From NCBI GenBank assembly GCA_034003985.1, contig JAVEXP010000003.1, positions 122,643-186,642 on the forward strand: a DNA stretch of 64,000 nucleotides, written 5' to 3'. Source of the stretch: Patescibacteria group bacterium. Lineage in GTDB: Bacteria; Patescibacteriota; Patescibacteriia; Buchananbacterales; UBA6539. Below, piece by piece: positions 8,727-30,922 of the stretch; position 1 is the stretch's first letter, and every line of letters starts with the position of its first letter. The translations under genes were made by a program, and so were the position numbers. The notes beneath the pieces were generated by a model. It ran no database searches, had not been told where the DNA came from, and saw only the letters and a list, made by a program, of their open reading frames with translations.

Positions 8727-10025
8727 TTGACAGCCAAAACCCTCAGGGGTTTGGTTTATTTTTGGCAAAATTCCCCTCGGCTGACCAGGCACCTGACTAA
8801 AATTCTTAAAGTCGGCGGCAAGATACTGCTGCTGATAATAATTTTACCGCTCTACCGAATATCGTTAGGACTTAAAAAAATCTTCAATCATTTTTACGCT
8901 CCGCAAAAGAGCCGGCATCATCTGATTCATTTTTTTTCCCGAAGATACCTGACCCATTTCATCATCATCATGGTTGCCATCTTTACGGTCGGCGCAAATT
9001 TAAACGCCTATGAGGTCAGGCGTTCTGATTTCGGCAACGACAGCATCGTCGGCACAATCGTTGCCCCAGAAGATCTGGGTGGTATCGAAGAAGAAGGTCC
9101 GATTTTAAACAGTAAAAAAATCAGCCGCTATCTGGGCCAAAATGCCATTGGCAACACCCCTCAAGCCAGCGAAGGCGGTCAAGCAGAAGAGACTCTGCCA
9201 TCAACAGTGGCCGGCGGTAGCGCCGTGGTTAGTCCAATTCTTTCACCGATAGAAGAAGATTTGAGACAACGCGACAAAATCACTTACTACACCATCCAAA
9301 ACGGCGATACCATTTCGGAAATTGCCGAAAAATTCGGGATCACCACCAACACCATTTTGTGGGAAAATAATATGACGGCCTACAGTGTTATTCGGCCCGG
9401 CGATAGCCTGACCATTCTGCCGGCTTCCGGGATCAGACATAAAGTCAGCAGCGGTGAAACCGTGGCCGGCATTGCCAAAAAATACGGCGTGGAACCGGAC
9501 AAAATCATTGAATTTAATAAGCTAGCTTCGGCCGATGATATCAAAATTGGTGAGCAGCTAATGATTCCGGGCGGGAAAAAAATAAATACCGCCCCAAGCT
9601 ACAGCTTCCGCAGCATTGTTTCAGCACCAGCCACACCGGTTGCCCCCAAGGTAGTATCAACCGGCAAAATGCAATGGCCATCGGCCTGTCATACTATTAC
9701 CCAATACTTCCGTTTGGGACATTCCGGAGTTGACATCGCCTGCGGATCAGGCAAACCAATCTACGCGGCTGATGCCGGAACCGTAATAGTCGCCCAAGGC
9801 GGCTGGAATGGCGGTTATGGAAATTACATCATTATTGATCACGGCAAAGGCATTCAAACTCTTTATGGTCATTTAAGTAAAATCTATGTCGCGGCTGGAG
9901 AAGCGGTAACCAAAGGCCAAAACATCGCGGCCGAAGGTTCTACCGGAAGATCAACCGGACCCCATGTCCACTTTGAAGTTCGCGTCGCCGGCGTTCGAAA
10001 AAACGCTTTATACTACATTCAATAA
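8727..10025 (+). CDS. LysM-domain M23 family metallopeptidase
   Basis: LysM (YYTIQNGDTISEIA) plus M23 motifs (HSGVDIA...GSTGRSTGPHVHFEV). ORF begins with TTG, so the true start is uncertain. Confidence 0.85.
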   Translation: MTAKTLRGLVYFWQNSPRLTRHLTKILKVGGKILLLIIILPLYRISLGLKKIFNHFYAPQKSRHHLIHFFSRRYLTHFIIIMVAIFTVGANLNAYEVRRSDFGNDSIVGTIVAPEDLGGIEEEGPILNSKKISRYLGQNAIGNTPQASEGGQAEETLPSTVAGGSAVVSPILSPIEEDLRQRDKITYYTIQNGDTISEIAEKFGITTNTILWENNMTAYSVIRPGDSLTILPASGIRHKVSSGETVAGIAKKYGVEPDKIIEFNKLASADDIKIGEQLMIPGGKKINTAPSYSFRSIVSAPATPVAPKVVSTGKMQWPSACHTITQYFRLGHSGVDIACGSGKPIYAADAGTVIVAQGGWNGGYGNYIIIDHGKGIQTLYGHLSKIYVAAGEAVTKGQNIAAEGSTGRSTGPHVHFEVRVAGVRKNALYYIQ

Positions 10026-11987: not shown

Positions 11988-13508
11988 TTATTCGACCTTA
12001 GGACGATACTGCAAGGCTTCGGCCACATGATCCAAGGTTATCTTTTCGGCTTCGGCCAGATCGGCAATTGTGCGAGCCAACTTTAAAACCCGAAAATAAG
12101 ATCGGGTGGACAATCCAAGCCGATTAACGGCCTGGCGCAAAAGTTCAATTGTTTGATTATCAAGCTGACAAGATTCCCTGACTTGGCGGGAATTCATTTC
12201 GCTGTTGGTCAGCAAACCAAATGGCGTTAAGCGCCGGTGCTGGACCAAACGCGATTGTTCAATCCGCCGTTTAATTTGAGCGGAACTTTCCGAACATTGA
12301 TCGTTGATCAATCGGTCAAATTTTACCTTGGGGACTTCAACATGCAAATCAATCCGATCCAAAAGCGGCCCGGAAATTTTGCGCTGATAATTAATGATCT
12401 GCGACGGCAAACAAGTGCACTGACGCTGACTGTCGTTGAGATAGCCGCAGGGACAGGGGTTCATCGCCGCCACCAAAATAAATTTGGCGGGAAACTGCAA
12501 AGTGCCGGAAGCGCGAGAAATTGATACTGTCCCACTCTCCAACGGCTGACGCAGATTTTCCAAAACCGTTCGGGGGAATTCGGGAAATTCGTCCAGAAAC
12601 AAAACGCCGCGATGGGCCAAAGAAATCTCACCAGGCTTTGGCCAGCTACCGCCGCCCACCAAAGCCGGCGCCGAAGCGCTATGATGAGGATCGCGAAATG
12701 GTCGGGCAGTAATCAGCGGCTGGTTTGACGGCAATAACCCGGCGACACTATAAATGCGAGTAACCTCCAAAGCCTCGCGACGGTTCAAGTCTGGTAAAAT
12801 ACTAATCATCGTTTTAGCCAATAAAGTTTTGCCCGATCCCGGCGGCCCGGACATTAAAATATTATGAGCTCCGGCGGCGGCAATTTCCAAAGCCCGTTTA
12901 ACATGAGATTGGCCTTTAACCTGACTCATATCAAATTCAAAATCCGGGCGACAAAAATCAAAATTTCCAGCGGCAGTAAATCTTTTAATCTCACTAACCC
13001 CGCGCAGATGATAGACTAATTCCAAAAGGTTGGCGCAAGGAATGATTGTCAAACCATCAACCAGCGAGGCTTCAGCGGCATTCACCTGGGGAACAAAAAC
13101 CGTCTTAATCCCCCGCTGCAAAGCAAACAGGCAAATCGACAAAATACCATTGACGCCACGCAAATCACCATTAAGCGCCAACTCGCCAACAAACAAACTT
13201 TCCAAAAAAATTGGTTTCAAAGGAAGTTGGTTACTAACCAACAGAATACTGATAGCAATTGGCAAATCATAAGCCGGACCGGCTTTTTTCAAATCAGCCG
13301 GTGCCAAATTGATGGTAACTTTACTGCGCGGCATCTGAAGAGAAGAATTTTTAATCGCCGAGCGAACCCGCTCACGCGATTCATCGACTGATTTATCCGG
13401 TAAACCGACAATGAATATTCCCGGCAAAGCCGGACTAACATCAGATTCAACCTCGACTAACTCACAGTCCAGTCCCAAAATGGCGGCAGAATAAACTTTG
13501 GCAGACAT
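11988..13508 (-). CDS. YifB/ComM family Mg-chelatase-like AAA ATPase
   Basis: 506 aa, Walker A GPPGSGKT, overall YifB architecture. Confidence 0.85.
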   Translation of the reverse strand: MSAKVYSAAILGLDCELVEVESDVSPALPGIFIVGLPDKSVDESRERVRSAIKNSSLQMPRSKVTINLAPADLKKAGPAYDLPIAISILLVSNQLPLKPIFLESLFVGELALNGDLRGVNGILSICLFALQRGIKTVFVPQVNAAEASLVDGLTIIPCANLLELVYHLRGVSEIKRFTAAGNFDFCRPDFEFDMSQVKGQSHVKRALEIAAAGAHNILMSGPPGSGKTLLAKTMISILPDLNRREALEVTRIYSVAGLLPSNQPLITARPFRDPHHSASAPALVGGGSWPKPGEISLAHRGVLFLDEFPEFPRTVLENLRQPLESGTVSISRASGTLQFPAKFILVAAMNPCPCGYLNDSQRQCTCLPSQIINYQRKISGPLLDRIDLHVEVPKVKFDRLINDQCSESSAQIKRRIEQSRLVQHRRLTPFGLLTNSEMNSRQVRESCQLDNQTIELLRQAVNRLGLSTRSYFRVLKLARTIADLAEAEKITLDHVAEALQYRPKVE

Positions 13509-20328: not shown

Positions 20329-20592
20329 CTAAAGAACTTCGACCGAACCCACGACCTGGCCCCGATAGAACCACTGCTTCTTCAGGCCATTCCAGGTGAT
20401 GGCGGTATGGGTGGTGTTTTCCACCGTGAGCGACACCAATTCACCGTCGCCATTGGTATTCTTGACAATCAAGGTCCCTCCCGGGGATCGCAGGATCGAA
20501 TGCCCCTCTTCGGCCCTAATAACAAGCCGACTGCCGATTAACGCCTCATGCAGGATTCTGGTGATCTCTTGAGATGACATCTTTTCGGACAT
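20329..20592 (-). CDS. island gene G7, 87-aa hypothetical protein (weak HicA-like GH motif)
   Basis: AGGAGG RBS 7 nt upstream of ATG (MSEKMSSQ...). GC-rich relative to host. Confidence 0.5.
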   Translation of the reverse strand: MSEKMSSQEITRILHEALIGSRLVIRAEEGHSILRSPGGTLIVKNTNGDGELVSLTVENTTHTAITWNGLKKQWFYRGQVVGSVEVL

Positions 20593-20887
20593 GGCTGTAC
20601 CTCCTAAGTTACTGACTGCAGTTAGAAACACTCCGAGAAATTAAATTTATAAGATTTATTAAAAATTGTCAAAATCCTCAAAAAAATCACACCACTATTT
20701 GGTACGAACTAAAAAGCAAAAATACTGATGAAAAAATATAAAGCGCGTTTGGCCAAACATCCTAATTCAATGCCAGGGGGAAAAAGTTAATTTCCTTTTC
20801 TGCCTACCTAAATCACTTCTGGCTAAAAATAATTTTAGACAGAAATGGAGGAGAGAATTTTAGGTAAGCGGAAAAATAAACCATCTT

Positions 20888-20970
20888 CTTTCCTCAAGCT
20901 CCACCAAGTACCATGCCTGACAAGGTTAGTTGGAAGGAGGAACACGCCGCAAAGCTGGTGCTCCTCCATT
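20888..20970 (+). repeat. structured repeat element, copy 1 of a 5-member family (conserved box TTGGAAGGAGGA at 20930-20941)
   Basis: Shares about 45 nt (CCTCAAGC.CCAC.AAGTACCAT..) with copy 5. Covarying hairpin GGAGGAACAC/GTGCTCCTCC ends 8 nt from the G6 stop. Confidence 0.6.
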
Positions 20971-20975
20971 GTCAC

Positions 20976-21347
20976 TTAATCGGGATCCCAACCCCAAGTC
21001 TTATGGGGCTGGCGACTTCCACACCGGACCTCACCAAGAAAAATCCGGCTTTTGTACTTCCTTGGGAAAAAGACCACCTCCATGTGGTCATAACCTGCTG
21101 AGAATATCACTTTTTCTGGGATTTTTTCTACCCAGACCCATGCCAGCGCTGGGTTTTGACCAGAGAGAGGTCCAATATGGTTCATGAAGGATCGCCATTC
21201 GCGATTAAACCCCTCGACACAGTAGTCGGTCAAAACCTGGGTGGGTTCCGGCTTCTCGAAAACCAAGACAAACCCACTCTTTTCAGCCAAAATGGCTTTC
21301 GCCGCGGCGATTGCCTCATCATAGTATCCACCCTCTTCCTTTATCAT
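20976..21347 (-). CDS. island gene G6, 123-aa hypothetical protein
   Basis: AAGGAGAAG RBS 6 nt upstream of ATG (MIKEEGGYYDE...). Confidence 0.5.
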   Translation of the reverse strand: MIKEEGGYYDEAIAAAKAILAEKSGFVLVFEKPEPTQVLTDYCVEGFNREWRSFMNHIGPLSGQNPALAWVWVEKIPEKVIFSAGYDHMEVVFFPRKYKSRIFLGEVRCGSRQPHKTWGWDPD

Positions 21348-21419
21348 GATCTTCTCCTTTCCAAGATTTCGGCGCTACTAGCAGGTGTTCGTTTCCCGCT
21401 TCGCCAGCTCTATATTAAT

Positions 21420-21499
21420 CTTCCAACTAACCTCATCAAACCCTGAGCCCGATGAGATTAGTTGGAAGGAGGAGCACACAGTACCACTGGCACTCCTTC
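21420..21499 (+). repeat. structured repeat element, copy 2
   Basis: Near-perfect 18-bp palindrome CTTCCAACTAACCTCATC-13 nt-GATGAGATTAGTTGGAAG. Then GGAGGAG box and hairpin GAAGGAG/CTCCTTC ending 18 nt from the G5 stop. Confidence 0.6.
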
Positions 21500-21517: not shown

Positions 21518-22084
21518 TTAAATCTCTGGCAACCGTCGCCAGCCGGGGGGAAACTCGTCTCGGGTATTTTTGTAGAATACCCAACCCGTCCATGTTCCAT
21601 CTTCACGAAGAAGACGAAAATACGGGAAACTGCTTGCACAGTTAAACCCCCCCTGCATTTGTTTTTTTTGCCAGCCTTTATAGCCAGCTGGCGGCTTGGA
21701 TGGGGCAATTCCCTTAAACCGAACACCCCGGTTCAGACAAGCAGCACTGGTGAAAATCACCAAGCCGCTGTCAATATCCAAGCTGCCGGAACCTGGATCA
21801 ACCAAGACAGCTCCTTGAAAATCAGGATGCTTCTTGATAAACTCCGTTGCTCTTGATCGAGCTACCGAGGATCGGCCGGCAAAAAAAACAACCGGCATCC
21901 TCAACAAATTCAACTGCCCATTTTTTATCGGCAGCTGCTGACGGGAGATGACATCCATCTTTCTCCGGTCATCACCCAAAAGATAGGCCAAGCCGGAAAA
22001 GTTGGAAACACTTTCCACCTTACCGTGCCGGCGAAAAACAACACGGATTTCTTCTGCAGCTAAAAAATCTCTGGTGTCCATCAT
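21518..22084 (-). CDS. island gene G5, 188-aa hypothetical protein (possible Rossmann/PRTase-like VLVDPGSGS motif)
   Basis: AAGGAGA RBS. Start at MMDTRDF... Confidence 0.5.
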   Translation of the reverse strand: MMDTRDFLAAEEIRVVFRRHGKVESVSNFSGLAYLLGDDRRKMDVISRQQLPIKNGQLNLLRMPVVFFAGRSSVARSRATEFIKKHPDFQGAVLVDPGSGSLDIDSGLVIFTSAACLNRGVRFKGIAPSKPPAGYKGWQKKQMQGGFNCASSFPYFRLLREDGTWTGWVFYKNTRDEFPPGWRRLPEI

Positions 22085-22195
22085 CAGGGTCTCCTTTTTT
22101 ATTACTTCTCCCAATGAGTCCACCTGCGCTTTACAGACGAACTCAAGAAGGAGCAGTACCGATCAAACCTCGGTCGGCACTGCTGTCAGGAAACA

Positions 22196-22687
22196 TCACC
22201 ACGGACAAGCCGTGGTTTCCGTTCCCGGAATTATCGGCTCACTGCCCCAAACCAGGGCGTGGCCGTCCCAGAATTCCCTCGCTTTCCTTTCCGCTTCCTG
22301 CGGATTGGCTTGTTGAGAAAAAAATCTGGCATCCCACGGCTCCGGTTCGGGGCGTTTACCAACAAAAGCCGTACGGACTTCATACTTGTCATCGCCGATC
22401 TTCTTCAAAACGACGACAACGCTTGAACACGGCTTGGCTTGGCGGTTTTTAACAAACCGAGTTAGGCCCAAACGCTTTGGTCGCCGGGCATACACGATTT
22501 GGTCGCCGGGCTTGGTGGCGACGCAGACCGTCTGCCCGATTTTCCGGCCAAAATCAATTTCCTCAAGAAAAAACTGCCTGCCCAAGGAATCAACTTTTGC
22601 CAATGCCTCGCCAAGCAGCATCTGCACATCGCCATGCAAATGGCTGTCAGTGCGGTCACAGACCGCTTCGCCCGATTTGAGCATCAT
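22196..22687 (-). CDS. island gene G4, 163-aa hypothetical protein
   Basis: GGAGGG RBS 8 nt upstream of ATGATG (MMLKSGEAV...). Promoter/operator just upstream. Confidence 0.5.
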   Translation of the reverse strand: MMLKSGEAVCDRTDSHLHGDVQMLLGEALAKVDSLGRQFFLEEIDFGRKIGQTVCVATKPGDQIVYARRPKRLGLTRFVKNRQAKPCSSVVVVLKKIGDDKYEVRTAFVGKRPEPEPWDARFFSQQANPQEAERKAREFWDGHALVWGSEPIIPGTETTACPW

Positions 22688-22758: not shown

Positions 22759-22794
22759 GAGGAGAGACAATTTGTCCAGAAAATGAAAAAACTG

Positions 22795-22868
22795 ATTCCT
22801 GTTTTGCCAGTCAAAATTTCACGGGCAAAATTGGAAGGAGGAGTCGCAAGCACCACTTGGACTCCTCC
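22795..22868 (+). repeat. structured repeat element, copy 3
   Basis: ATTCCTGTTTTGCC-15 nt-GGCAAAATTGGAA palindrome. Then GGAGGAGTC-14 nt-GACTCCTCC hairpin. Confidence 0.55.
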
Positions 22869-23023: not shown

Positions 23024-24223
23024 CTACTGCACCGCGATGACCAAGCCAAGAGCGATGTCCTGGACATGCGTCCAGGCAATCGTCGCCCCGGCTCCTGGCT
23101 GAAATGTCGCGCAGGCGGCCGCGCGACCGTGGTAGGCCATGGCCAAACTGGCCATCAGCCAGTTCGGGCCGCGGCCCGACAGAACCACGACCGTTCCCAG
23201 CCCGACTTCGGGCGGGACGATCATGTCGAGGGCCGCGGGCGCCAGGGGGACGCTCGGGTCGAGCGCGAACTCAACCCGCACGCACCGGCGCTCGCCCAGC
23301 GCCGGCAGATCGCTGACGGTCCAGCCGCAGCCGGAACCGTCACCCGACGGGCTGGGGCAGCCCACGGCGATGTAGCCGTCGGGCGAGTTCACCCGCGCCG
23401 AGCGCGGGTGAACCTCGTGCACCAGCGCGGCAACGAGCCACGCCGGTGCGGCGCCGTCGATATCCACCACCTCGGGGAAGGTGGCGGACTGATTATGGAG
23501 CAACCCCGCGACACTCGCGAGGTCTACCCCCTCCCAGCAAAGTTGCTGCACAACCTTGCCGTTAGGGAGCGTCCGCTCCACCGCGTTTTTCCCCAGCGCT
23601 GCGGCCAGCGCCGGGATCGAAATTACATTTCCGTTGAGGAGCATACGCCCCTCCTTTCTTTCGTTGCGGCCGAGCTCGGGCCCAGCCAGACTCAAAATCA
23701 ATTCCGCCACGGCGACGATCGCCGGGCGGTCGTTGACACTCACCTCGCCCCGTTCGAGGTGGTGAACCACTCCTTCCAGCCGGGGCACGGTCTGCTGGAT
23801 GGAGTCGGCGGCGCCTTGATAATCACTGTCCAAGACAGCGACCACCTCAACGCCCAGTTGGGCTAGGAACGCCTCCCACTCGGGGACGGCATTCCGATCA
23901 CCCGCGAGAATGATCCCGTGAGTGATCCCTCCCTCCGAAACGATGCGAGCGTTTTCGGAGGAAGTCCGGCCGCCGATATCCACGAGGACAATCGGCGCCA
24001 GACTGCAGGAGGCGAGAGACTGGCAGTACCAGTCAACTATCTCCTGCGAGAAAGACCCTTTACGACGGTGCTTTTCAGCACCATTGCCGCGCCAGGTCCA
24101 GCTCCCTTCCCCGTCCGGGCAGGCCCGGAACAGGTAACGGGAACTTCTTGGCAGGTTCTCGCATAACCCGCCAAGAAATACGGACTTCCCACTGTGGGGA
24201 GGTCCGGCGACAACGATTTTCAT
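23024..24223 (-). CDS. island gene G3, very GC-rich P-loop NTPase (Walker A GPPHSGKS, DIGG Walker B/G3-like) with uncharacterised C-terminal half
   Basis: AAAGGAGG RBS 6 nt upstream of ATG (MKIVVAGPPHSGKSVF...). About 400 codons. Plus-strand ORFs over it are Arg-rich antisense shadows. Confidence 0.6.
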   Translation of the reverse strand: MKIVVAGPPHSGKSVFLGGLCENLPRSSRYLFRACPDGEGSWTWRGNGAEKHRRKGSFSQEIVDWYCQSLASCSLAPIVLVDIGGRTSSENARIVSEGGITHGIILAGDRNAVPEWEAFLAQLGVEVVAVLDSDYQGAADSIQQTVPRLEGVVHHLERGEVSVNDRPAIVAVAELILSLAGPELGRNERKEGRMLLNGNVISIPALAAALGKNAVERTLPNGKVVQQLCWEGVDLASVAGLLHNQSATFPEVVDIDGAAPAWLVAALVHEVHPRSARVNSPDGYIAVGCPSPSGDGSGCGWTVSDLPALGERRCVRVEFALDPSVPLAPAALDMIVPPEVGLGTVVVLSGRGPNWLMASLAMAYHGRAAACATFQPGAGATIAWTHVQDIALGLVIAVQ

Positions 24224-24296
24224 CGCTGCCTCCTTTCTCCCCGATTGGGGAGTTTTTATTTTTATGGAAACCAGCCGCCTCACATCAGCGTCCGGG

Positions 24297-24380
24297 AATT
24301 TCCCTCAGGACTTACCAACAGACAAACATATTGCTGATAAATCCAGTTGGGAGGAGGAACTACTGAACCACAGCCGTTCC
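24297..24380 (+). repeat. structured repeat element, copy 4 (diverged)
   Basis: TTCCCTCAGG...ACCAAC...GTTGGGAGGAGGAAC. Weaker hairpin GGAAC/GTTCC. Confidence 0.4.
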
Positions 24381-24623
24381 CCCAAATAACCAATGGCACC
24401 ACGCGGCGGTGCCACTATCACGATCGATTAACCCCCATCGATCAAAGGAGTATTCAGATTTACTCTCGAAAGAGAGAAGGCCTAACACACAAGGCCTTTT
24501 GCCAATGCTTTTACGCGGATGGCTGCTCTAATTACTAGAGCTTTACCGCAACTCGGATAATTTAATACCCGAGGCTATGATGGTACAAACCGCAAATACT
24601 TACACACGGTTTGTACCCCCCCA

Positions 24624-24833
24624 TCAAGGTCCCTCGATCAGTCGGCGAACCGACCGCTCAAGGGATCTTTTGATCCCCCACGAGATTTGGGCCCCCAGCA
24701 GGGAGCCCGCCTGGCAGGATACCTCAATATCGATTGGACCATCGAGGTATTCAATGGCGGCCAAAGCCGCCGGCAAGTCCTTCTTGTCGACGGCGGCTGT
24801 AAGCCGCCGAAATCCTTCTAACAATTCATCCAT
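24624..24833 (-). CDS. island gene G2, 69-aa hypothetical protein
   Basis: AAGGAGGA RBS 6 nt upstream of ATG. Followed 10 nt after its stop by a perfect 11-bp hairpin. Confidence 0.45.
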   Translation of the reverse strand: MDELLEGFRRLTAAVDKKDLPAALAAIEYLDGPIDIEVSCQAGSLLGAQISWGIKRSLERSVRRLIEGP

Positions 24834-24926
24834 GGCGTCCTCCTTTCATAGAGTTTCGGCTCGCCACGAGCCGCCCCCTAGGGGAAATTTCTTCTTTTCC
24901 CGCGCCGCACATTGGCTCGAGATTTT

Positions 24927-25001
24927 TTCCCTCAAGCCCCACAAGTACCATACTTGTGAAGCTAATTGGAAGGAGAAGCCGACAAAGCAGTCGGCTTCTC
25001 C
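24927..25001 (+). repeat. structured repeat element, copy 5
   Basis: TTCCCTCAAGCCCCACAAGTACCAT. Then CACAAGTA/TACTTGTG hairpin, TTGGAAGGAG box, and 12-bp hairpin GGAGAAGCCGAC/GTCGGCTTCTCC ending 8 nt from the G1 stop. Confidence 0.6.
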
Positions 25002-25009
25002 GTTATTAA

Positions 25010-25273
25010 TTAGTCGTACTTAACAACTGTTTCCATCTCTTCCGTATTTCTCGACTGACAATTCGGGCACATCGGCTTAAGTATTTTATGCGTCAGTTCC
25101 CCGCCGCAGTCGTCGCATTTGCCAACGGCATTTTCATCAAAGCCATCTCGGGGCAAAGCTTTTATTTTATCGCAATCAAGGCAATGATAATTATAGAATA
25201 AGGCACCATCGCCCAAATTGGACCTAAATTCATTTTGGCAATCATTGCACTTGCACATCACAATAATACCCAT
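25010..25273 (-). CDS. island gene G1, double zinc-ribbon small protein (four CxxC pairs)
   Basis: CKCNDC...CLDC...CDDC...CPNC in 87 aa. Confidence 0.55.
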   Translation of the reverse strand: MGIIVMCKCNDCQNEFRSNLGDGALFYNYHCLDCDKIKALPRDGFDENAVGKCDDCGGELTHKILKPMCPNCQSRNTEEMETVVKYD

Positions 25274-26345
25274 ACCTTAAATCATTATTAATTTCTTGTT
25301 TTTTGCTTTCTTAAAATTGTCAAAGTACTTCCTATTTTAGCTCCTCACCAGATGCTCCTAATACCTGGAGTAATTTCATTTCTCTTAAAATTATTTTTTC
25401 TAACTAGGATTGTTCTTTCCGCAAACCGGTGGTTAATCGGCCTACGGAAAACGTCAATCCCAACTAGGTTTGACGCTTGGCCCGGTCCAAAAAATTCAGA
25501 ATCAATACCTCACCCTTTAAGCGAAGCCTGATTAATCAAAAATTCTTAAACCGCTAGCGCTTGCTCATCGCCAAATTTTTGCCAAGTTGAGCATAGTTTG
25601 AAAGTCTATGCTGAAGACTAATTCTCTCCTCAAACATCAGACTTCAATTTAGACTATAATGAACATTTTTTCTCTCTTATTGAGAGAATGCTGCAGAAAA
25701 AGAAATTCTTGGCTTAGCTTTAGGCCTTTTTTTTATTTAGACAATGTTAATTTATGCCAGCCGCGCTTATTTTTTTTACCGCCGACCGCCTGGGCGCTAA
25801 AAACGCTTTTGGCAGTGTGGCATCTCTCCTCTTTCTGCAATATCTTCCCAACAAAAAATCCGCTTTTCGCGGAGAGTTACTTTGCTCATATGACATATGC
25901 TATAAGCTAACAAGTACTCTCTCCACTTAGTACTTCCTATATAATGTAATGTTCGGCTAGTGATTTTAACCACTGTCTCCGACCACCGTCACGGCCGGAT
26001 CACACTGATTACAATCTTTTGGGCTTAAAGAAGATTTACCAAGGTATATCTTTCTCCTCAATTAGCAGACCTTGATTAACCTTTACCTTTTTACTGCCCT
26101 TTTGATTAACCCCTCTTGCTGGTTGTCATTCTCCTCAAATGGCTTCCAGACTTGTTGGGGATGTGTTTTATAGAACCTTTTGTCAGCTTTTAAAACTTCT
26201 TGGTTTTTTAGCTTAACGAGTCATTATAGCATATCTTAAAAATACTGTCAAGTATTTGTGACAATAATTATTCATTAAATTGTATTTTAGCTAAAATAAG
26301 CTAGCTTAGTTTGGTAAATTTAGCTAAATATTTGTCATAAATTCT

Positions 26346-26378
26346 TGACAAAAAATTATAAAAGGTATATAATAATAA
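26346..26378 (+). promoter_or_regulatory. sigma70-like promoter for the TrmB-like regulator
   Basis: TTGACA-17-TATAAT. Confidence 0.5.
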
Positions 26379-26408
26379 TAGATAAATAAACAATTACCAA
26401 CTAATCAT

Positions 26409-27236
26409 ATGTACGAGCAACACCTCAAACAAGCCGGTTTGTCTAAAGAACAGGCGGAAATATATGAGCTGTTAATTAAAAAAGGCCCACAAAAAGCCGG
26501 CAAAATAAGCCAAAAAACCACGCTGAAGCGAGGCTTAGTCTACAAAATTCTTGAACAACTAGTGGATTTTGGCTTGGTTGAGAAAATAGAAAAGGAGGGT
26601 CAAATAGCAACTTTTATTCCGGCCCATCCCCTAAAGCTGAGAGAGCTGGCTCAAAAGCAGGAACAGCAGGCCAAAGACGCCCAGCTGGCCTTGGCTGGAG
26701 TTTTGCCTTCTATTATCTCTGACTTTAATTTGGTTTCAGGCAAGCCGGGCGTCCGATTTTTCGAGGGTGCAAGCGGCTTAAAACAAATTTATGACGATAT
26801 ATTGGCGACTCTGAAAAACAGCGAAACTTTTTATTTAATCCGGGCCGCTTATGAGCCAGTGTATAAAGAAAAAATGATCCCAATTATTGACGATTTTATT
26901 AAAAAAAGAGTGAAAAAAAACATTAATGTCGTCGCCTTAACTCCCGCCGACGAGCTGGCTGAAGAAAAAACAACGAATACCCAGGCGGACCAGGCAATTC
27001 TGTTTGACCGGACCTTGGTTGATAAAAAAAAATACTCCCAGCCGGTGGAAATTGACATATATGGTGATAAAATTGCCATGCTTTCTTTCGGCCAGGAATT
27101 AATCGGCACAATAATAGAAAGTCCCCAGATCTCTGGGGCTTTAAAAGAAATTTTTATTTTAGCTCAAAAAGGCGCCAAACTTAAGCCGCCGCTGGAAGAT
27201 CAAGGGCTTTATGATGGGATCCGTAATGTTCCTTAA
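26409..27236 (+). CDS. TrmB-family transcriptional regulator
   Basis: N-terminal wHTH (LSKEQAEIYELLIKKGPQKAGKISQKT...) with C-terminal TrmB-type effector domain. Confidence 0.7.
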   Translation: MYEQHLKQAGLSKEQAEIYELLIKKGPQKAGKISQKTTLKRGLVYKILEQLVDFGLVEKIEKEGQIATFIPAHPLKLRELAQKQEQQAKDAQLALAGVLPSIISDFNLVSGKPGVRFFEGASGLKQIYDDILATLKNSETFYLIRAAYEPVYKEKMIPIIDDFIKKRVKKNINVVALTPADELAEEKTTNTQADQAILFDRTLVDKKKYSQPVEIDIYGDKIAMLSFGQELIGTIIESPQISGALKEIFILAQKGAKLKPPLEDQGLYDGIRNVP

Positions 27237-29571
27237 TTTTTCGTCGGATAATTCTAACAATTTCAGCAAAAACCTCGGCATCTCCCAATCCTTTACTAAA
27301 TGATTCTCGATTATGATAATATTGGGGATTTTTATTTTTTTGCTCCGCTTCTGTGCTTAAAGCATTACCAATTGAAATAACCCGGCCAACGGTATCCTCA
27401 ACCGAACCGATCTCTAAAGATATTTCCCCTTCTTTTATGGTCGGATCATTGGCAACAATTTTTCCATCTTGTCTTTGTTTGCCTTCACGATCAATTCTTA
27501 AACTTAAAGCCCTTTTCCGGCTATCCGAATCAATATCTAAATCAATTGGTCTATCCGAAAATAAAAAGTTGACTCTGGCTTCACTGTCAAATTCTCTTTG
27601 CTGGTTTCTGTCTGGATAAGCCACACCATATTCGCGAAGCTGAATGGTTAAATAAGAGACTTGGCCATTGTGTTCAACTGAAAAATTGTAGCTTTCAGGC
27701 ACACCCTCTTCCACATTTATTAACTCAAATTGATAACTTTCATTTTCATCCTCTGTTTCTACCAAAGCAATAATTTGATCCAAGGCCAATCGATATTGTT
27801 TCAAAGACTGAATTATTTCTTGACTACTGCCGCTAGCAAGCTGCTTAGTTCTTTCATAAAATCTTGCTTTTGCCTTGCCTTTGCCGGCAATCGCCGCGGC
27901 GGCATATAAAATATCCTTGGCCCGGCGCATTATAGCTTCGGCACATTGAGCCGGAAAATCCTCCCTAAGAGAATCAAATAATTCGCTTGAAGTAAACTCT
28001 TCAGTACTATTTATTGTTTCTGCCAGATGTTTAGCGCTTTTAATTAAACTATTATATTCAGCAAAAATTTCCGCTGCTTCTTCTTCCGGTAGCTTTGTAC
28101 CCATTTCAATAATTATATTTCCAACATTATCACTATATTCACAGGCTAAAAAAGTTCTTAAGCCGTCTAAACCAAATTTTTTGGAAAAAGCAATAACTTG
28201 ATTATAATTTTCTTGATTAATGAAAGCATAAGTGGTTAAAGCGTTTTGCTCTCTCAAAGAAAGATTATGAATACCCAAACCAGCCTGTTCAGTTAGATCA
28301 CGAGATAACTCCTGGAGTTTATTGTATTCCCGAACAGCGTTGAAATCCGCCACCCTTTGGGCATAATCTTCGGGAGTTTCATCCTGCCGCCTTGGACTTA
28401 ATTCAGTAGCGCTGAAAGGAACGGGTTTTGGCGCGTCAGCATCTCTTTTTCCAAAAAATATATCACCTGATTTGGGCTTACGCCCCCGCTTTTTCTCAAA
28501 TTCGGTGATTCTTTTTTGAATCTGTTCAGGATTAGCCGGATGAAAAACATGATTCACTTTTCTCACACCTTTTGTTTCATCAACAATACCATACAAATCT
28601 TCGGCCAACTTAACAAATAATTTTCCCTGAAATTCACTGCCCAAAATATATCTTGGACTAAAAGATTGAATCTGGCCGGCTTCATCTTGCCACCTTGTTT
28701 GAACAGAAACGCCGCCAACCCTGTCTTTAATTTCTCTTTCGCTGCGGATATCTTCCGAAGTTTTGCTCCCTTCACATTGATTAAAATCTTTGGCGGTTAA
28801 CATTCCGCTCTTCTTTAAGTTGGCATATTCCGGCAAATTAATTGCTCTCTTTGGCGCGGCCCAGATGTCAATTTGCCCGCCTGATTTGGTCCGGCCGCGC
28901 GAAGCGACTTTAATGCCACTTACTGCACCACTACCACCAGACCGAATGCCTTTATTAGTTATCCAGTCAGAATTCAAAGGGATAAAATCTTTTGATTCAG
29001 ATGATTTTCTAACCATTAAATGACCGTTTTCGTCCCGATAACCAGCGCCATAATTCGGATGAAATATCCTTAAAGCCAATTCCGCTTCTTCGCCGGAATA
29101 ACCAAATTGCTCCTGATAAAACTGATTGATACTTGACCACCTACCTGGAACTTCCGAAATAGATAAATAAAAATCGGCGTCTTGAATCGCCGTCTTGTCA
29201 AAAGCCTTGTCTTTGGACGGAATATAAAAAAGCGGCTTAGGTTCAATATCGGCTTCACCGCTTTGTTTTCTTTCCCAGTCGGAGCGGGAATAAACCGACT
29301 TGTCTTGAAAATAACTTAATAATTCCTTTTGAAAACTGCTACGACCGGCTTTGCGCGCCGATTCGATATCCGGCAAAGCTCTGATAGCATCAGTTTGTTT
29401 AGAAATTTTATCTAAATCACAAATTACTTCGCCATCTGAGCCAAATTCAAAAAATTTTTCTTTTTCCAAATAATTCGCCAACTTTTCGCACAAAGCCTCA
29501 TCACCATCTTCTCCAGTATCTTCTTGATCGTATTTTTCCAGATTTAAACCATTTTCAAATCCTTGACGCAT
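27181..29571 (-). CDS. large (796 aa) acidic hypothetical protein, no recognised domain
   Basis: Long uninterrupted ORF. 3' end overlaps the convergent TrmB gene by 56 nt. Confidence 0.5.
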   Translation of the reverse strand: MRQGFENGLNLEKYDQEDTGEDGDEALCEKLANYLEKEKFFEFGSDGEVICDLDKISKQTDAIRALPDIESARKAGRSSFQKELLSYFQDKSVYSRSDWERKQSGEADIEPKPLFYIPSKDKAFDKTAIQDADFYLSISEVPGRWSSINQFYQEQFGYSGEEAELALRIFHPNYGAGYRDENGHLMVRKSSESKDFIPLNSDWITNKGIRSGGSGAVSGIKVASRGRTKSGGQIDIWAAPKRAINLPEYANLKKSGMLTAKDFNQCEGSKTSEDIRSEREIKDRVGGVSVQTRWQDEAGQIQSFSPRYILGSEFQGKLFVKLAEDLYGIVDETKGVRKVNHVFHPANPEQIQKRITEFEKKRGRKPKSGDIFFGKRDADAPKPVPFSATELSPRRQDETPEDYAQRVADFNAVREYNKLQELSRDLTEQAGLGIHNLSLREQNALTTYAFINQENYNQVIAFSKKFGLDGLRTFLACEYSDNVGNIIIEMGTKLPEEEAAEIFAEYNSLIKSAKHLAETINSTEEFTSSELFDSLREDFPAQCAEAIMRRAKDILYAAAAIAGKGKAKARFYERTKQLASGSSQEIIQSLKQYRLALDQIIALVETEDENESYQFELINVEEGVPESYNFSVEHNGQVSYLTIQLREYGVAYPDRNQQREFDSEARVNFLFSDRPIDLDIDSDSRKRALSLRIDREGKQRQDGKIVANDPTIKEGEISLEIGSVEDTVGRVISIGNALSTEAEQKNKNPQYYHNRESFSKGLGDAEVFAEIVRIIRRKIKEHYGSHHKALDLPAAA

Positions 29572-29693: not shown

Positions 29694-30608
29694 ATGAATA
29701 AATTAATCAACCAATTTTTAGAATACCTGGAAATCGAAAAAGGCCGAAGCCTGAACACGGTTCAGAATTATCATTTTTATCTCAACCGTTTTGCCGAGTG
29801 GTCAAAAATAAAAAAGCCTGAGCAGATAAATCAAGATTTGGTCAGGAGCTATCGTATTTGGCTCAACCGTCAAACTGACAACCGAGGTGAAGTCCTGGAA
29901 AAATCAACCCAAAATTATCACCTGATTGCCCTAAGATCATTTTTAAAATATTTGTCCAAGATTGATGTCAACTCAATGGCACCGGAAAAAATTGAACTGG
30001 CCAAAATGCCGCAACGCCAAGTTGATTTTTTGGAAGGCCCTGACTTGGAAAGATTATTAGAAGCACCGCTGAAAAGCGCGGAACCAGAAATCATTAAGCT
30101 ACGCGACAAGGCGATTTTGGAATTATTATTTTCAACCGGCTTGCGGGTCTCGGAACTTTCCAAACTCAACCAAGACCAAATCAATTTAGCCAAAGAAGAA
30201 TTTACCGTCCGTGGCAAAGGCAGCAAATTACGGGTGGTTTTTTTGTCTAATCAGGCCAAACATTGGCTAAAGCAATATTTGGAAAAAAGAAAGGATCTAT
30301 CCCCCAGCCTATTTGTCCGTCACGACCGGGCCAAGGGTAAAAAAGAAGCAGAAAATCTAACACCCCGAAGCATTCAGCGGCTGATTAAAAAGTATGCCAA
30401 AGAAGCTGGGATTGCCAAAGACATCACACCCCACACCATGCGCCACAGTTTTGCAACAGATCTGCTGATTAATGGCGCCGACATTCGTTCCGTCCAATCA
30501 ATGCTGGGACATTCCTCAATTACCACCACCCAAATTTACACTCACTTAACAGATCACCAGCTGCGTGAAGTTTATAAAACTTTCCACCAACGCCAAAGAC
30601 GCAAGTAA
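29694..30608 (+). CDS. tyrosine recombinase, XerC/XerD family
   Basis: R..HxxR..Y catalytic signature: HTMRHSFATDLL...LGHSSITTTQIYTHL. Confidence 0.8.
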   Translation: MNKLINQFLEYLEIEKGRSLNTVQNYHFYLNRFAEWSKIKKPEQINQDLVRSYRIWLNRQTDNRGEVLEKSTQNYHLIALRSFLKYLSKIDVNSMAPEKIELAKMPQRQVDFLEGPDLERLLEAPLKSAEPEIIKLRDKAILELLFSTGLRVSELSKLNQDQINLAKEEFTVRGKGSKLRVVFLSNQAKHWLKQYLEKRKDLSPSLFVRHDRAKGKKEAENLTPRSIQRLIKKYAKEAGIAKDITPHTMRHSFATDLLINGADIRSVQSMLGHSSITTTQIYTHLTDHQLREVYKTFHQRQRRK

Positions 30609-30656: not shown

Positions 30657-30731
30657 GCCCCTGTAGTTCAACGGATAGAACGAGGGCCTTCTAAGCCTTA
30701 GATCAAGGTTCGATTCCTTGCGGGGGCACCA
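30657..30731 (+). tRNA. tRNA-Arg (anticodon TCT)
   Basis: Cloverleaf folds. Anticodon loop CTTCTAA. Encoded CCA. Confidence 0.8.
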
Positions 30732-30755
30732 GAAAAGTTTAACCCCTGATTATAA

Positions 30756-30830
30756 GCCCCCTTAGTTCAACGGATAGAATGTGGGCTTCCGGAGCCTAAG
30801 ATGTAGGTTCGATTCCTACAGGGGGCACCA
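30756..30830 (+). tRNA. tRNA-Arg (anticodon CCG)
   Basis: Anticodon loop TTCCGGA. T-arm GTAGG-TTCGATT-CCTAC. CCA encoded. Confidence 0.75.
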
Positions 30831-30846
30831 GTAGAAAATTAAATAT

Positions 30847-30922
30847 GGTGGCCTTGGTGAAACGGTTATCACGCGAGTTTGTGGCACTCGCATTACGGGT
30901 TCGATTCCCGTAGGCCACCCCA
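30847..30922 (+). tRNA. tRNA-His (anticodon GTG) with G-1
   Basis: Anticodon loop TTGTGGC. Extra 5' G pairs with discriminator C. CCA encoded. Confidence 0.8.

What the first reader, a model, noticed from the sequence alone, without database searches (positions are those of the whole stretch)
23024..24223. Very GC-rich P-loop NTPase of unassigned family embedded in a low-GC genome
Minus-strand translation gives MKIVVAGPPHSGKSVFLGGLCENLP...PDGEGSWTWRG...LVDIGGRTSSEN..., then about 280 aa with no motif I recognise. This includes a Gly/Pro-rich segment CPSPSGDGSGCGW and a C-terminal VVVLSGRGPNWLMASLAMAYHG.

The Walker A with His (GPPHSGKS) and the DIGG motif about 60 aa later resemble a small GTPase/kinase-like core, not a classical AAA+ domain.

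Its GC content and its AAAGGAGG RBS are completely unlike the host. The long plus-strand ORFs over it are Arg-rich antisense artefacts of high GC. As the only enzyme-sized gene in the island, it is the likeliest effector or motor of whatever the island does.
Basis: partly seen in the sequence, partly recalled or inferred. Interest (0 to 1): 0.7.

Follow-up and report, generated by a model that had tools for sequence, protein, structure and literature searches.

The report
Orphan AAA-Csx3 gene in CPR island
The GC-rich gene is a member of the already catalogued but functionally uncharacterised "AAA-Csx3" family of CRISPR-accessory proteins, here sitting without any CRISPR system in a small, foreign-looking gene island of a Patescibacteria (CPR) genome, next to a conserved partner protein of unknown function and between copies of an apparently undescribed RNA hairpin element.

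Summary
The ORF (23024-24223, minus strand, 399 aa), its quoted motifs, its GC (0.65 vs 0.42) and its AAAGGAGG RBS are all real. The family is not unassigned. PADLOC "AAA-Csx3" (C3a67) covers the whole protein, Pfam Cas_csx3 hits the C-terminus, and NCBI already names the identical protein "Csx3".

New detail:
- The P-loop domain is SIMIBI-class (MinD/ParA/BioD-like), not AAA+.
- The "motif-less" 220 aa are two tandem Csx3 domains.
- The canonical Crn3 residues D69 and R71 are missing from both, while four histidines are conserved.

No cas gene or CRISPR array lies in the 64 kb window. Among 55 full-length homologue loci, mostly CPR and gut Clostridia, no Cas10/Csm/Cmr model appeared among the strong matches of the large neighbours.

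In CPR the gene recurs beside a divergent TrmB regulator and directly upstream of c25 (the window's orf174). c25 is a CPR-specific protein with a weak RelE/CdiA-like fold signal. bpMoxR-vWA and DEAH-helicase modules are often nearby. An ~80-nt two-hairpin element with strong covariation and no Rfam match follows the operons.

Most likely it is a CRISPR-independent, nucleotide-ligand-sensing NTPase switch in a defence-type island. Identity is near-certain; the mechanism is inferred.

The parts
23024..24223 (-). AAA-Csx3 gene (399 aa plus stop), identical to NCBI 'MAG: CRISPR-associated protein Csx3 [Patescibacteria group bacterium]'
24230..24237 (-). Shine-Dalgarno AAAGGAGG, 6 nt before the ATG
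   Evidence: read; SD contrast with the host
23690..24223 (-). N-terminal P-loop NTPase domain (aa 1-~178). Walker A G7PPHSGKS14, Walker B/switch II LVD82IGG85, invariant RACPDGEG loop. SIMIBI-class fold.
23324..23638 (-). Csx3-like domain 1 (aa ~196-300): DG257AAP260AWL...H269EVH272P...N279SP281DG283
   Evidence: hhalign against the C-terminal domain: probability 90%, E 1.7e-6; BLASTP E 2e-4; Pfam Cas_csx3 reports 2 stretches
23027..23323 (-). Csx3 domain 2 (aa 301-399): S349GRGPNWL...M362AYH365G...FQ375PG377...TH386
22196..22687 (-). orf174/c25 (163 aa from the SD-preceded ATG). Conserved partner of AAA-Csx3 in CPR, function unknown; weak RelE/CdiA-CT-like fold signal.
26409..27236 (+). TrmB-family HTH regulator, divergent from the island. 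The same cluster (c6) flanks AAA-Csx3 in 15 loci.
   Evidence: Pfam PF01978 E 9e-12; cluster c6
26223..26251 (-). Perfect sigma-70-type promoter (TTGACA-17-TATAAT with TG) pointing into the island
   Evidence: consensus match only
26345..26373 (+). Perfect sigma-70-type promoter facing the TrmB gene
   Evidence: consensus match only
24923..25001 (-). Two-hairpin 3' element, copy after the Zn-ribbon ORF
   Evidence: CM R1 60.5 bits; fold z -7.9
24296..24383 (-). Two-hairpin element, copy upstream of AAA-Csx3 (after the doubtful orf69)
   Evidence: CM 50.2 bits
22788..22868 (-). Two-hairpin element, copy after AAA-Csx3
   Evidence: CM 39.6 bits
22105..22186 (-). Two-hairpin element, copy after orf174/c25
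   Evidence: CM 29.5 bits; fold z -5.2
21417..21499 (-). Two-hairpin element, copy after orf189
   Evidence: CM 62.4 bits
20885..20967 (-). Two-hairpin element, copy after orf123
   Evidence: CM 59 bits
25010..25273 (-). Zn-ribbon ORF (87 aa), first ORF of the island
   Evidence: Pfam Zn_ribbon_8 (below cut-off) and NCBIfam CxxC_CxxC_SSSS
21518..22084 (-). orf189, no family found
20976..21347 (-). orf123, no family found
20329..20592 (-). orf87, no family found; last island ORF before rpsO

Best explanation
The gene encodes a member of the AAA-Csx3 family (Shah et al. cluster 67, C3a67).

Architecture:
- An N-terminal SIMIBI-class P-loop NTPase.
- Two tandem Csx3 (Crn3-type, CARF-related) domains that most likely pack as an intramolecular pseudo-dimer.

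Context: in this Patescibacteria genome it is not part of a CRISPR-Cas locus. It is one module of a horizontally acquired, TrmB-flanked, defence-type island and is followed by its conserved CPR partner c25/orf174, whose function is unknown.

Proposed mechanism (inferred):
1. The tandem Csx3 module binds an oligoadenylate-type ligand (cA4-like or an asymmetric relative). Through its conserved histidine cluster it possibly also cleaves that ligand.
2. As in Crn3, the ligand is sandwiched between the two faces of different molecules, so binding drives head-to-tail association.
3. That association brings the SIMIBI domains together into the nucleotide-dependent dimer typical of MinD/ParA/NifH-type switches.
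4. The switch controls an output protein. c25 is one candidate because of its tight linkage, but its activity is not established.
5. NTP hydrolysis and/or ligand cleavage resets the switch.

My probabilities: family identity and domain architecture about 0.95; 'CRISPR-independent sensor/switch in a conflict island' about 0.45; c25 as the controlled output about 0.2.
For: SHOWN - identity:
- PADLOC AAA-Csx3 PDLC01059 E 6.5e-36 over aa 3-393; Csx3-AAA PDLC01045 E 6.7e-47 over aa 2-177.
- Pfam PF09620 E 1.9e-16.
- More than 400 mostly full-length homologues that sources name Csx3.

SHOWN - tandem Csx3: hhalign 90%, E 1.7e-6. Distant members read NDPRLGAV in domain 1, matching AfCsx3 YDPRLGAV.

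SHOWN - conserved residues:
- H269, H272 and H386 are invariant and H365 is >=90% conserved (the 'H60 face').
- S349-G350-R351 (cA4-contacting S44-G45-R46 of AfCsx3) are kept in domain 2.
- D69->Q375 and R71->G377 in domain 2; D69->S280 and R71->D282 in domain 1 (against PMC7371418).

SHOWN - functional link of NTPase and Csx3: they occur as adjacent separate genes (c13 canonical Csx3 followed by c1 NTPase) in 8 loci.

SHOWN - context:
- No cas protein or CRISPR array in the 64 kb window.
- Arrays within 10 kb only at the type IV element (L006/L007/L013) and three loci that match only the N-terminal domain.
- No Cas10/Csm/Cmr family among the 25 strongest families shown for 65 large neighbour representatives from 55 loci, while SspH, IetA, PbeA, LmuB and type IV REase occur.
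- Recurrent CPR neighbourhood TrmB / c15 / c7 / AAA-Csx3 / c25 / bpMoxR / vWA / DEAH.
- AAA-Csx3 to c25 spacing is 0-36 nt in L056, L059 and L089.
- c25 carries an invariant basic cluster R69, R72, R77, N81, R82.

SHOWN - foreignness: GC +0.22 over background here and +0.12 to +0.16 in the same clade elsewhere.

LITERATURE:
- Shah et al. proposed the ATPase is allosterically regulated by the Csx3 domain with cOA as activator (PMC6546367).
- The Crn3 sandwich/tetramer mechanism is described in PMC7371418.
- Csx3 occurs as a module in non-CRISPR NTP-dependent conflict systems (PMC7159879).
- From my own knowledge, not checked here: CARF-RelE effectors (Cami1) set a precedent for a sensor paired with a RelE-type RNase.
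Against: - No ligand, NTPase activity or oligomerisation was or could be tested.
- The model's pTM is only 0.57, so the packing of the NTPase against the Csx3 pair is uncertain. I could not inspect coordinates to verify the pseudo-dimer.
- Loss of D69/R71 and of one S-G-R motif makes canonical symmetric cA4 binding doubtful, so the ligand is unknown.
- No known producer of cyclic oligoadenylates is present in the window. Only 64 kb of the genome were examined, so a type III system elsewhere cannot be excluded.
- c25 also occurs without AAA-Csx3, and AAA-Csx3 occurs without c25 in Saccharibacteria and Clostridia, so the pair is not obligate.
- In the window an element copy and 303 nt separate the two genes.
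- The PADLOC table shows only the first 25 of 76 matched families, so weak cas matches would not have been seen.
Confidence: 0.45

Rival explanations
1. It is an ordinary Crn3-type ring nuclease that acts in trans as the off-switch of a type III CRISPR-Cas system encoded elsewhere in the genome. The NTPase domain is an accessory feature.
For: - Family annotation and homology to Crn3.
- The conserved histidines H269, H272, H365 and H386 suggest a retained metal site.
- Ring nucleases are sometimes found in loci without effectors and may act in trans (PMC12409355).
- The founding members of cluster 67 are type III-(A),B associated (PMC6546367).
Against: - D69 (D69A is dead) and R71 (R71A is strongly reduced) are replaced in both Csx3 domains, and H57 is replaced in domain 2 (PMC7371418).
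- The NCBIfam Crn3 equivalog score of 49.2 is below the 55.4 cut-off.
- No cas genes or arrays in 64 kb.
- No Cas10/Csm/Cmr among the strong PADLOC matches of large neighbours in 55 homologue loci, most of them in CPR lineages, where CRISPR-Cas is rare (general knowledge).
- The strongly conserved fused NTPase argues for more than simple hydrolysis.
Confidence: 0.2
2. It is an anti-defence factor carried by a mobile element. It destroys or sequesters cyclic oligoadenylate signals of a host's type III/CBASS-like immunity, as the viral ring nuclease AcrIII-1 does.
For: - Strong GC anomaly and recent spread among CPR genomes.
- One homologue sits on a plasmid/phage-like element with ParB, SSB, PemK and a type IV CRISPR module (L006, L007).
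- Another lies among MGE-like genes: primase-helicase, HigB, M78 (L008).
Against: - Only 1 full-length relative in 2.9 million viral contigs.
- In CPR it lies in chromosomal islands next to a regulator and defence-type modules.
- No integrase, att repeats or phage genes flank the window island.
- Canonical catalytic residues are missing.
Confidence: 0.1
3. It is part of an oligonucleotide turnover or salvage pathway: breakdown of oligoadenylates or nanoRNAs for nucleotide scavenging by auxotrophic CPR cells.
For: In about 13 Saccharibacteria loci the gene is followed by an HD_4 phosphohydrolase and a MYG1/UPF0160 (DHH-type) exonuclease. There its GC matches the host, as expected for a resident gene.
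Against: - The window island has neither HD_4 nor MYG1.
- The window's clade is compositionally foreign and patchy.
- Its partners are MoxR-vWA and DEAH conflict-type modules.
- HD and DHH enzymes are equally expected in signal-degrading defence modules.
Confidence: 0.1
4. The GC-rich gene is a contaminant or chimeric assembly artefact and is not part of this genome.
For: GC 0.65 in a 0.42 genome.
Against: - The same junctions appear in the NCBI contig (195 kb) and an independent Logan assembly.
- The gene is flanked on both sides by copies of the same element that also follows the neighbouring lower-GC ORFs.
- Relatives in other CPR contigs show the same GC excess in the same kind of island.
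Confidence: 0.02

Closest known systems
AAA-Csx3 (cluster 67 / C3a67, exemplar Caur_2269) and Csx3-AAA (cluster 35, exemplars CYB_0599, Synechocystis Slr7080), from Shah et al. 2018
   Same: Same two building blocks. The PADLOC C3a67 model aligns over the whole protein, and the Csx3-AAA model aligns over the NTPase domain. The function of the ATPase part is uncharacterised in the literature too (PMC12409355, PMC9676260).
   Different: The catalogued members were defined by adjacency to type III-(A),B/D CRISPR-Cas. The window's gene and the 55 full-length relatives examined show no Cas10/Csm/Cmr among the strong PADLOC matches of their large neighbours and are mostly in CPR and gut Clostridia. 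The label 'AAA' is misleading: the fold is SIMIBI, not AAA+.
Crn3/Csx3 ring nuclease of Archaeoglobus fulgidus (AF_1864; PDB 3WZI, 6YUD)
   Different: AfCsx3 is a single-domain homodimer that tetramerises around cA4. Here there are two fused, diverged domains plus an NTPase. H57->M, D69->Q and R71->G in domain 2; D69->S and R71->D in domain 1. The NCBIfam equivalog score is below its cut-off.
SIMIBI-class P-loop NTPases (MinD, ParA/Soj, Mrp/ApbC, NifH, BioD, CTP synthase N-domain, GPN-loop and SRP GTPases)
   Different: No sequence-level family match (only a 0.24 E-value Walker A hit to DO-GTPase1). It lacks the signature lysine of the deviant Walker A of MinD/ParA (GPPHSGKS) and lacks an NKxD guanine motif. 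It has its own invariant RACPDGEG loop.
CARF-RelE effectors (Cami1; 'Csm6 CARF+RelE' in Shah et al.)
   Different: Sensor and putative RNase are separate proteins here. The sensor is Csx3-type and carries an NTPase. c25's RNase nature is unproven: its best structural relatives are uncharacterised apicomplexan proteins.
MoxR-vWA-centred NTP-dependent conflict systems (Kaur, Burroughs, Iyer, Aravind 2020)
   Same: bpMoxR (PF20030) plus vWA genes lie in the same CPR islands as AAA-Csx3 and c25. That paper already lists Csx3 as an effector-module domain outside CRISPR (PMC7159879).
   Different: The window's island has no MoxR or vWA gene. The association is at island level (modules separated by the hairpin element), not a demonstrated single system.

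Membership tests
AAA-Csx3 (C3a67, Shah et al. cluster 67) | N-terminal P-loop 'AAA' domain followed by a Csx3 domain; full-length match to the family profile | tested here: met
   PADLOC PDLC01059 E 6.5e-36, aa 3-393 on profile positions 7-374 of 382
AAA-Csx3 (C3a67, Shah et al. cluster 67) | Encoded adjacent to a type III CRISPR-Cas interference module | tested here: not met
   No cas family or array in the 64 kb window. No Cas10/Csm/Cmr among the strong PADLOC matches of large neighbours in 55 homologue loci. The rest of the genome was not examined.
Csx3/Crn3 ring nuclease (PF09620, TIGR02579) | Csx3 fold and domain | tested here: met
Csx3/Crn3 ring nuclease (PF09620, TIGR02579) | NCBIfam equivalog score at or above the curated cut-off | tested here: not met
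   49.2 bits against a cut-off of 55.4
Csx3/Crn3 ring nuclease (PF09620, TIGR02579) | Conserved catalytic and binding residues H57, H60, D69, R71, H80 (PMC7371418) | tested here: not met
   Domain 2: M362, H365, Q375, G377, H386. Domain 1: H269, H272, S280, D282, no H80 equivalent. The D69/R71 dyad is absent from both domains; the histidines are split between the two.
Csx3/Crn3 ring nuclease (PF09620, TIGR02579) | Mn2+-dependent cleavage of cA4 by head-to-tail dimer-of-dimers | not testable with these tools
   Needs biochemistry
AAA+ ATPases | AAA+ core with C-terminal helical lid; closest structures are AAA+ proteins | tested here: not met
SIMIBI-class P-loop NTPases | MinD/BioD-like fold with Walker A and a DxxG Walker B | tested here: met
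SIMIBI-class P-loop NTPases | Nucleotide-dependent homodimerisation | not testable with these tools
   Only a monomer model was made. A multimer prediction or SEC-MALS is needed.
MinD/ParA subgroup | Deviant Walker A with signature lysine (xKGGxGK[ST]) | tested here: not met
   The sequence reads G7-P-P-H-S-G-K-S
Integron gene-cassette array (considered for the island) | Integron integrase IntI next to the array | tested here: not met
   The only tyrosine recombinase (29694-30608) scores as XerD/XerC/XerA (255 bits). The integron-integrase model TIGR02249 gives 136.8 bits against a cut-off of 265.
Integron gene-cassette array (considered for the island) | attC sites: single imperfect hairpin with R'' RYYYAAC and R' GTTRRRY cores | tested here: inconclusive
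   Only the copy at 21417-21499 has complementary TTCCAAC/GTTGGAA cores. The others have TTCCAAy facing TGAGGRAA, and all have an extra 5' hairpin. The IntegronFinder attC model was not available.
Rho-independent terminators (considered for the element) | GC-rich hairpin followed directly by a U-tract | tested here: inconclusive
   Some copies fit (L059 ...GCCATTCTC-TTTTTTTCC; L002b ...CACCCC-TTTTTCT). The window copies have CTCCTTCC, and the consensus scan does not call them on the gene strand.
RelE/ParE (BECR) RNase toxins (considered for c25/orf174) | RelE-like fold and sequence-family match | tested here: inconclusive

The most novel reading that the evidence does not exclude
In Patescibacteria the 'CRISPR-associated' AAA-Csx3 protein has been recruited into a CRISPR-independent signalling module. 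A tandem-Csx3 pseudo-dimer that has lost the canonical ring-nuclease dyad senses a nucleotide signal, possibly not cA4, and drives a SIMIBI NTPase switch that controls a CPR-specific output such as c25. This module, MoxR-vWA, DEAH-helicase and other units are shuffled as operon-sized cassettes within TrmB-governed islands. The boundaries of those cassettes are marked by a previously undescribed, covarying two-hairpin RNA/DNA element.
Probability: 0.3. Interest if true: 0.7.

Novelty: new member of a known kind. Interest (0 to 1): 0.45.

Why it matters
The ATPase-fused Csx3 proteins are a known blank spot in cyclic-oligoadenylate biology. Reviews still call the ATPase 'of unknown function'.

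This locus and its relatives sharpen the question in four ways:
- The domain is a SIMIBI dimerisation switch, not an AAA+ motor.
- The Csx3 part is an asymmetric tandem pair that lacks the canonical catalytic dyad.
- A large clade lives in CPR bacteria and gut Clostridia with no type III CRISPR-Cas detected nearby, so a Cas10-independent signal or role is implied.
- A tightly linked partner (c25) offers a candidate output to test.

If this holds, it would extend Csx3/CARF-type signalling beyond CRISPR in lineages thought to be poor in such immunity. It would also caution against automatic 'CRISPR-associated' annotation. Separately, the conserved two-hairpin element is a candidate new RNA family or module-boundary signal in CPR accessory islands.

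Tried and rejected
1. Integron-like cassette array. This was attractive because each ORF has its own GC and is followed by a homologous hairpin element, and one copy has TTCCAAC/GTTGGAA cores. I rejected it as a membership claim. There is no IntI, and most copies lack complementary R''/R' cores. In relatives the element follows whole operons such as c15-c7-AAA-Csx3-c25 and MoxR-vWA-DEAH, not single genes. A recombination role is still not excluded: the L004/L008 homology breaks at the element's 3' end.
2. tRNA-targeted genomic island with att repeats. No direct repeat of 12 nt or more links the tRNA cluster (30657-30922) to the island ends.
3. Known RNA family for the element. Rfam gathering and E-value scans gave only tRNAs and chance microRNA-type hits.
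4. REP/RAYT or IS200/IS605 ends. Faint Y1_Tnp ORFs occur near some homologues, but there is none in the window and the elements are all in one orientation. Not pursued further.
5. Phage origin. Only 1 of 2.9 million viral contigs carries a full-length relative.
6. c7, c15 or c30 partners in the window. tblastn found none.
7. A sequence-level PDB relative of c25. None found.
8. The afdb50 fold library was unavailable.
9. GTG start at 24283 (419 aa). Rejected in favour of the ATG at 24223 because of the RBS and the homologue N-termini.
Full report
**Observation.** The minus-strand ORF is real. The ORF listing gives 23024..24283. The ATG at 24223 (399 aa, MKIVVAGPPHSGKS...) is preceded by AAAGGAGG and matches the N-termini of homologues. 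GC is 0.65 (GC3 0.77), against 0.427 for the window and 0.39-0.46 for flanking housekeeping genes (PNPase, NYN, S15, Xer). The identical protein is on record from an NCBI Patescibacteria MAG (contig 195,734 bp). The same island is also assembled independently in a Logan contig, so it is not an assembly chimera.

**What the protein is.** It is not of an unassigned family.
- Pfam Cas_csx3 matches aa 325-396 (E 1.9e-16, two stretches).
- PADLOC 'AAA-Csx3' (C3a67) aligns over aa 3-393 (E 6.5e-36), and 'Csx3-AAA' aligns over aa 2-177 (E 6.7e-47).
- More than 400 mostly full-length homologues exist, and NCBI and JGI name them Csx3.
- Shah et al. 2018 catalogued the architecture as type III accessory cluster 67 (AAA-Csx3) and, in the reverse order, cluster 35 (Csx3-AAA). 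They proposed that the ATPase is allosterically controlled by cOA binding to Csx3 (PMC6546367).
- Later papers still call the ATPase 'of unknown function'.

**Anatomy.** An AlphaFold model built on 46 sequences is confident (pLDDT 89.9, pTM 0.57).
- The middle ~100 aa are a second, diverged Csx3 domain: hhalign against the C-terminal domain gives 90% probability, E 1.7e-6, and BLASTP gives 2e-4. In distant members this domain reads NDPRLGAV, the same as AfCsx3 YDPRLGAV.

Mapping onto AfCsx3 uses the published requirements: H57, H60, H80 and R71 are absolutely conserved, D69A is dead, and R71A and H80A are strongly impaired (PMC7371418).

| AfCsx3 residue | Domain 2 (C-terminal) | Domain 1 (middle) |
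|---|---|---|
| H57 | M362 | H269 |
| H60 | H365 | H272 |
| D69 | Q375 | S280 |
| R71 | G377 | D282 |
| H80 | H386 | none |

The histidine face is therefore reconstituted from both domains. H269, H272 and H386 are invariant and H365 is at least 90% conserved. The D69/R71 dyad is gone, and only domain 2 keeps the S-G-R ligand-contact motif. The NCBIfam Crn3 equivalog score (49.2) is below its cut-off of 55.4. I therefore file the protein under AAA-Csx3 but not as a canonical Crn3 ring nuclease.

**Context in the window.**
- There is no CRISPR-like array. A PADLOC scan of all 57 sizeable ORFs finds no Cas10, Csm/Cmr or CARF effector.
- The gene lies in a ~5 kb island between rpsO and a divergent TrmB-family regulator (26409-27236).
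- Each island ORF has its own GC (0.42-0.65).
- 6 of 7 island ORFs have strong Shine-Dalgarno motifs, against 2 of 47 background ORFs. The background starts are approximate.
- A pair of perfect divergent sigma-70-type promoters sits at 26.22-26.37 kb. One faces TrmB and one points into the island (consensus only).

**Context elsewhere.** A scan of 185,579 species-representative genomes returned 80 loci.
- Full-length members are mostly Patescibacteria (Saccharibacteria, Moranii-, Doudna-, Paceibacterota, Peri-, Uhr-, Adlerbacteria, Parcubacteria) and uncultured gut Clostridia.
- Arrays within 10 kb occur only at a type IV-carrying plasmid/phage-like element and at three loci that match only the N-terminal domain.
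- Among the 65 largest neighbour-ORF representatives of 55 full-length loci, no Cas10/Csm/Cmr model appears among the 25 strongest families shown (of 76 matched). SspH, IetA, PbeA, LmuB, type IV REase and mads components do appear.
- No paper in the library combines Csx3 with Patescibacteria.

Clustering of 1,325 neighbouring ORFs reveals recurrent neighbourhoods.
- Parcubacteria-type CPR: TrmB (divergent; 15 loci including the window) ... c15, c7, AAA-Csx3, c25, then bpMoxR (PF20030), vWA and a DEAH/HA2 helicase.
- Saccharibacteria: c7, AAA-Csx3, HD_4, MYG1/UPF0160, c8.
- Clostridia: AAA-Csx3, LysR, c4 and a second partial copy.
- Cyanobacteria and others: a canonical stand-alone Csx3 (c13) directly precedes a stand-alone NTPase (c1) in 8 loci. 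This split-gene arrangement ties the two domains together functionally.

The window's orf174 (22196-22687) is c25. It follows AAA-Csx3 at 0-36 nt in L056, L059 and L089, and it is fused into a larger protein that follows AAA-Csx3 in L037 and L057.

**The partner c25.**
- It has about 105 homologues, all labelled hypothetical, with no Pfam domain, from CPR.
- It has invariant D62, R69, R77, E116 and W118 and a basic cluster.
- Its model is excellent (pLDDT 95.3).
- Foldseek is confident only for the Toxoplasma counterpart 4fbd, with CdiA-CT at probability 0.63.
- A RelE/BECR-type RNase is therefore only a weak possibility, and c25's function remains unknown.
- c25 also occurs without AAA-Csx3 next to TrmB-MoxR-vWA, so the modules are combinable rather than obligate.

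**The repeat element.**
- After six island ORFs lies an ~80-nt element on the gene strand: a GC-rich hairpin of variable sequence, a pyrimidine tract (CTCCTTCCAAyT), and a second long hairpin whose 5' arm is that tract.
- Homologous copies follow AAA-Csx3 or c25 in other CPR contigs.
- A covariance model built from 15 copies finds 35 copies at E < 0.01 in 17 sources. Apart from three palindromic antisense echoes, all are on the gene strand, and all are in non-Saccharibacteria CPR-type loci.
- In the window it finds only the six island copies and none in the other ~59 kb.
- On the 35-copy alignment, 88.3% of cells pair versus 71.0% in shuffles (0 of 500 shuffles reach it). 16 of 17 pairs show double compensatory changes. 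The covariation score is 0.67, versus at most 0.25 for slid registers. The caveat is that the alignment is fitted to the model.
- Many U-G pairs make the structure specific to the sense strand.
- The copies sit at the 3' ends of operons, for example L059: u85 | E | c15-c7-AAA-Csx3-c25 | E | MoxR-vWA-DEAH.
- The homology between L004 and L008 breaks at the element's 3' end.
- Rfam has no match, and one literature search found no description.
- It may be a lineage- and island-specific terminator or processing signal, or a module-boundary recombination site. An integron reading fails for lack of IntI and of consistent attC cores.

**Mobility.** In the window's clade the gene exceeds local GC by 0.12-0.22 in eight different contigs. 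In Saccharibacteria and Clostridia it matches the host. This indicates recent spread of this clade among CPR genomes. Only one full-length relative is found in 2.9 million viral contigs.

**Mechanism.**
- Shown: family membership, the three-domain architecture, the residue pattern, the lack of detected CRISPR linkage, and the conserved neighbours.
- Inferred: the tandem Csx3 unit binds, and via its histidine cluster perhaps cleaves, an oligoadenylate-type ligand. Crn3-like sandwiching between molecules brings the SIMIBI domains into a nucleotide-dependent dimer. That switch controls an output protein, with c25 as one untested candidate.
- I put family identity at about 0.95, the CRISPR-independent sensor/switch reading at about 0.45, and c25 as the controlled output at about 0.2.
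- Rivals: a trans-acting ring nuclease for a distant type III system (0.2), an MGE anti-defence nuclease (0.1), oligonucleotide salvage (0.1) and an assembly artefact (0.02).

**Verdict.** The protein is a new member of a known but uncharacterised family. What is new lies in the details (SIMIBI fold, tandem asymmetric Csx3, CPR-wide neighbourhood without detected type III CRISPR-Cas, the c25 partner) and in the accompanying RNA element. I rate the interest as moderate.

Noticed in passing
window 20885-20967, 21417-21499, 22105-22186, 22788-22868, 24296-24383, 24923-25001 (all minus strand); also L002 4726-4795 and 6239-6300, L004 3852-3935, L008 11260-11335, L010 2642-2712, L012 12387-13269 (3 copies), L056 11768-11839 and 18244-18320, L059 6997-7078 and 10125-10197, L061 8225-8305, L089 11743-11814 and 15348-15423: An ~80-nt two-hairpin element with strong covariation (16 of 17 pairs compensatory) sits at the 3' ends of operons in CPR accessory islands. 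It is absent from the window's housekeeping 59 kb and has no Rfam match. It could be a new RNA family, an unusual terminator or a module-boundary site.
   Followed up: yes
L004 3935/4014 versus L008 11336/12731: Homology between two contigs stops at the 3' end of the element and resumes at the DEAH helicase gene. L008 has two extra genes (AAA_28, 180 aa) in between. This is a module-sized indel at the element boundary.
   Followed up: partly
window, all ORF starts: The host genes almost entirely lack Shine-Dalgarno motifs (2 of 47), whereas 6 of 7 island ORFs have AGGAGG-type motifs. Hairpin 1 of several window element copies is itself GGAGGAG/CTCCTCC, ending in a CCUCCUU string that resembles a 16S anti-SD tail.
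   Followed up: partly
window 25274-26408: A 1.1-kb gene-less, AT-rich (GC 0.35) stretch lies between the island and TrmB. It holds two perfect divergent TTGACA-17-TATAAT promoters (26251->26223 minus strand; 26345-26373 plus strand), which implies a ~950-nt leader before the first island ORF. Long TrmB-to-first-gene gaps also occur in L059 and L089.
   Followed up: partly
L062, L063, L066, L067, L068, L071, L076, L078: Split version of the fusion: a canonical stand-alone Csx3 (c13, ~105 aa, with H..H, YDPRLG, TH) lies immediately upstream of a stand-alone NTPase (c1, ~200 aa). L067 and L076 also have CRISPR arrays nearby.
   Followed up: partly
L023-L035 (Saccharibacteria, including Nanosyncoccus): Conserved operon c7 / AAA-Csx3 / HD_4 phosphohydrolase / MYG1 (UPF0160, DHH-type exonuclease) / c8 (~550 aa, unknown), with host-like GC. 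This is a nucleotide-processing gene set around a Csx3 protein in episymbionts.
   Followed up: partly
L041, L046, L048-L050, L054, L081-L083, L088 (gut Clostridia): AAA-Csx3 is followed by a LysR regulator, a 160-aa unknown protein (c4) and a second, shorter copy of the family (230-380 aa).
   Followed up: no
L002 ~2575-2650 and 3164-6300: The two-gene island (AAA-Csx3 plus an unknown 375-aa gene, each followed by the element) lies directly downstream of a sequence that looks like a tRNA gene to my eye (no tRNA scan was run on it) and upstream of housekeeping genes (a Pyr_redox_2 oxidoreductase and enolase).
   Followed up: no
L006/L007/L013: A homologue sits beside a type IV CRISPR module (Cas6, Csf1, Csf3, 15-repeat array) on an element with ParB, SSB, two PemK toxins and an SMC-like ATPase.
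   Followed up: no
window 24577-25023 (+) versus 24624-24833 (-): Conflicting gene calls. The Logan annotation calls a 147-aa plus-strand ORF where I read a 69-aa minus-strand ORF with a perfect AGGAGG RBS. Neither has homologues or a family, and the plus-strand ORF overlaps an element copy.
   Followed up: no
window 27181-29571 (-): A 796-aa ORF with no Pfam or NCBIfam family lies between TrmB and the Xer-type recombinase. Its GC3 of 0.31 is lower than its neighbours.
   Followed up: no
window, elsewhere: PADLOC hits outside the island to mads components (mad3 E 2e-31, mad8), RmuC-like, AriA/PtuA-like ATPases and an SduA DUF4263 protein. These may be generic homologues or further defence genes; I did not determine which ORFs they belong to.
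   Followed up: no
window 9001-10000, 12001-13000, 38001-40000: Other 1-kb bins with GC of 0.49-0.53, above the 0.43 mean. Not examined.
   Followed up: no
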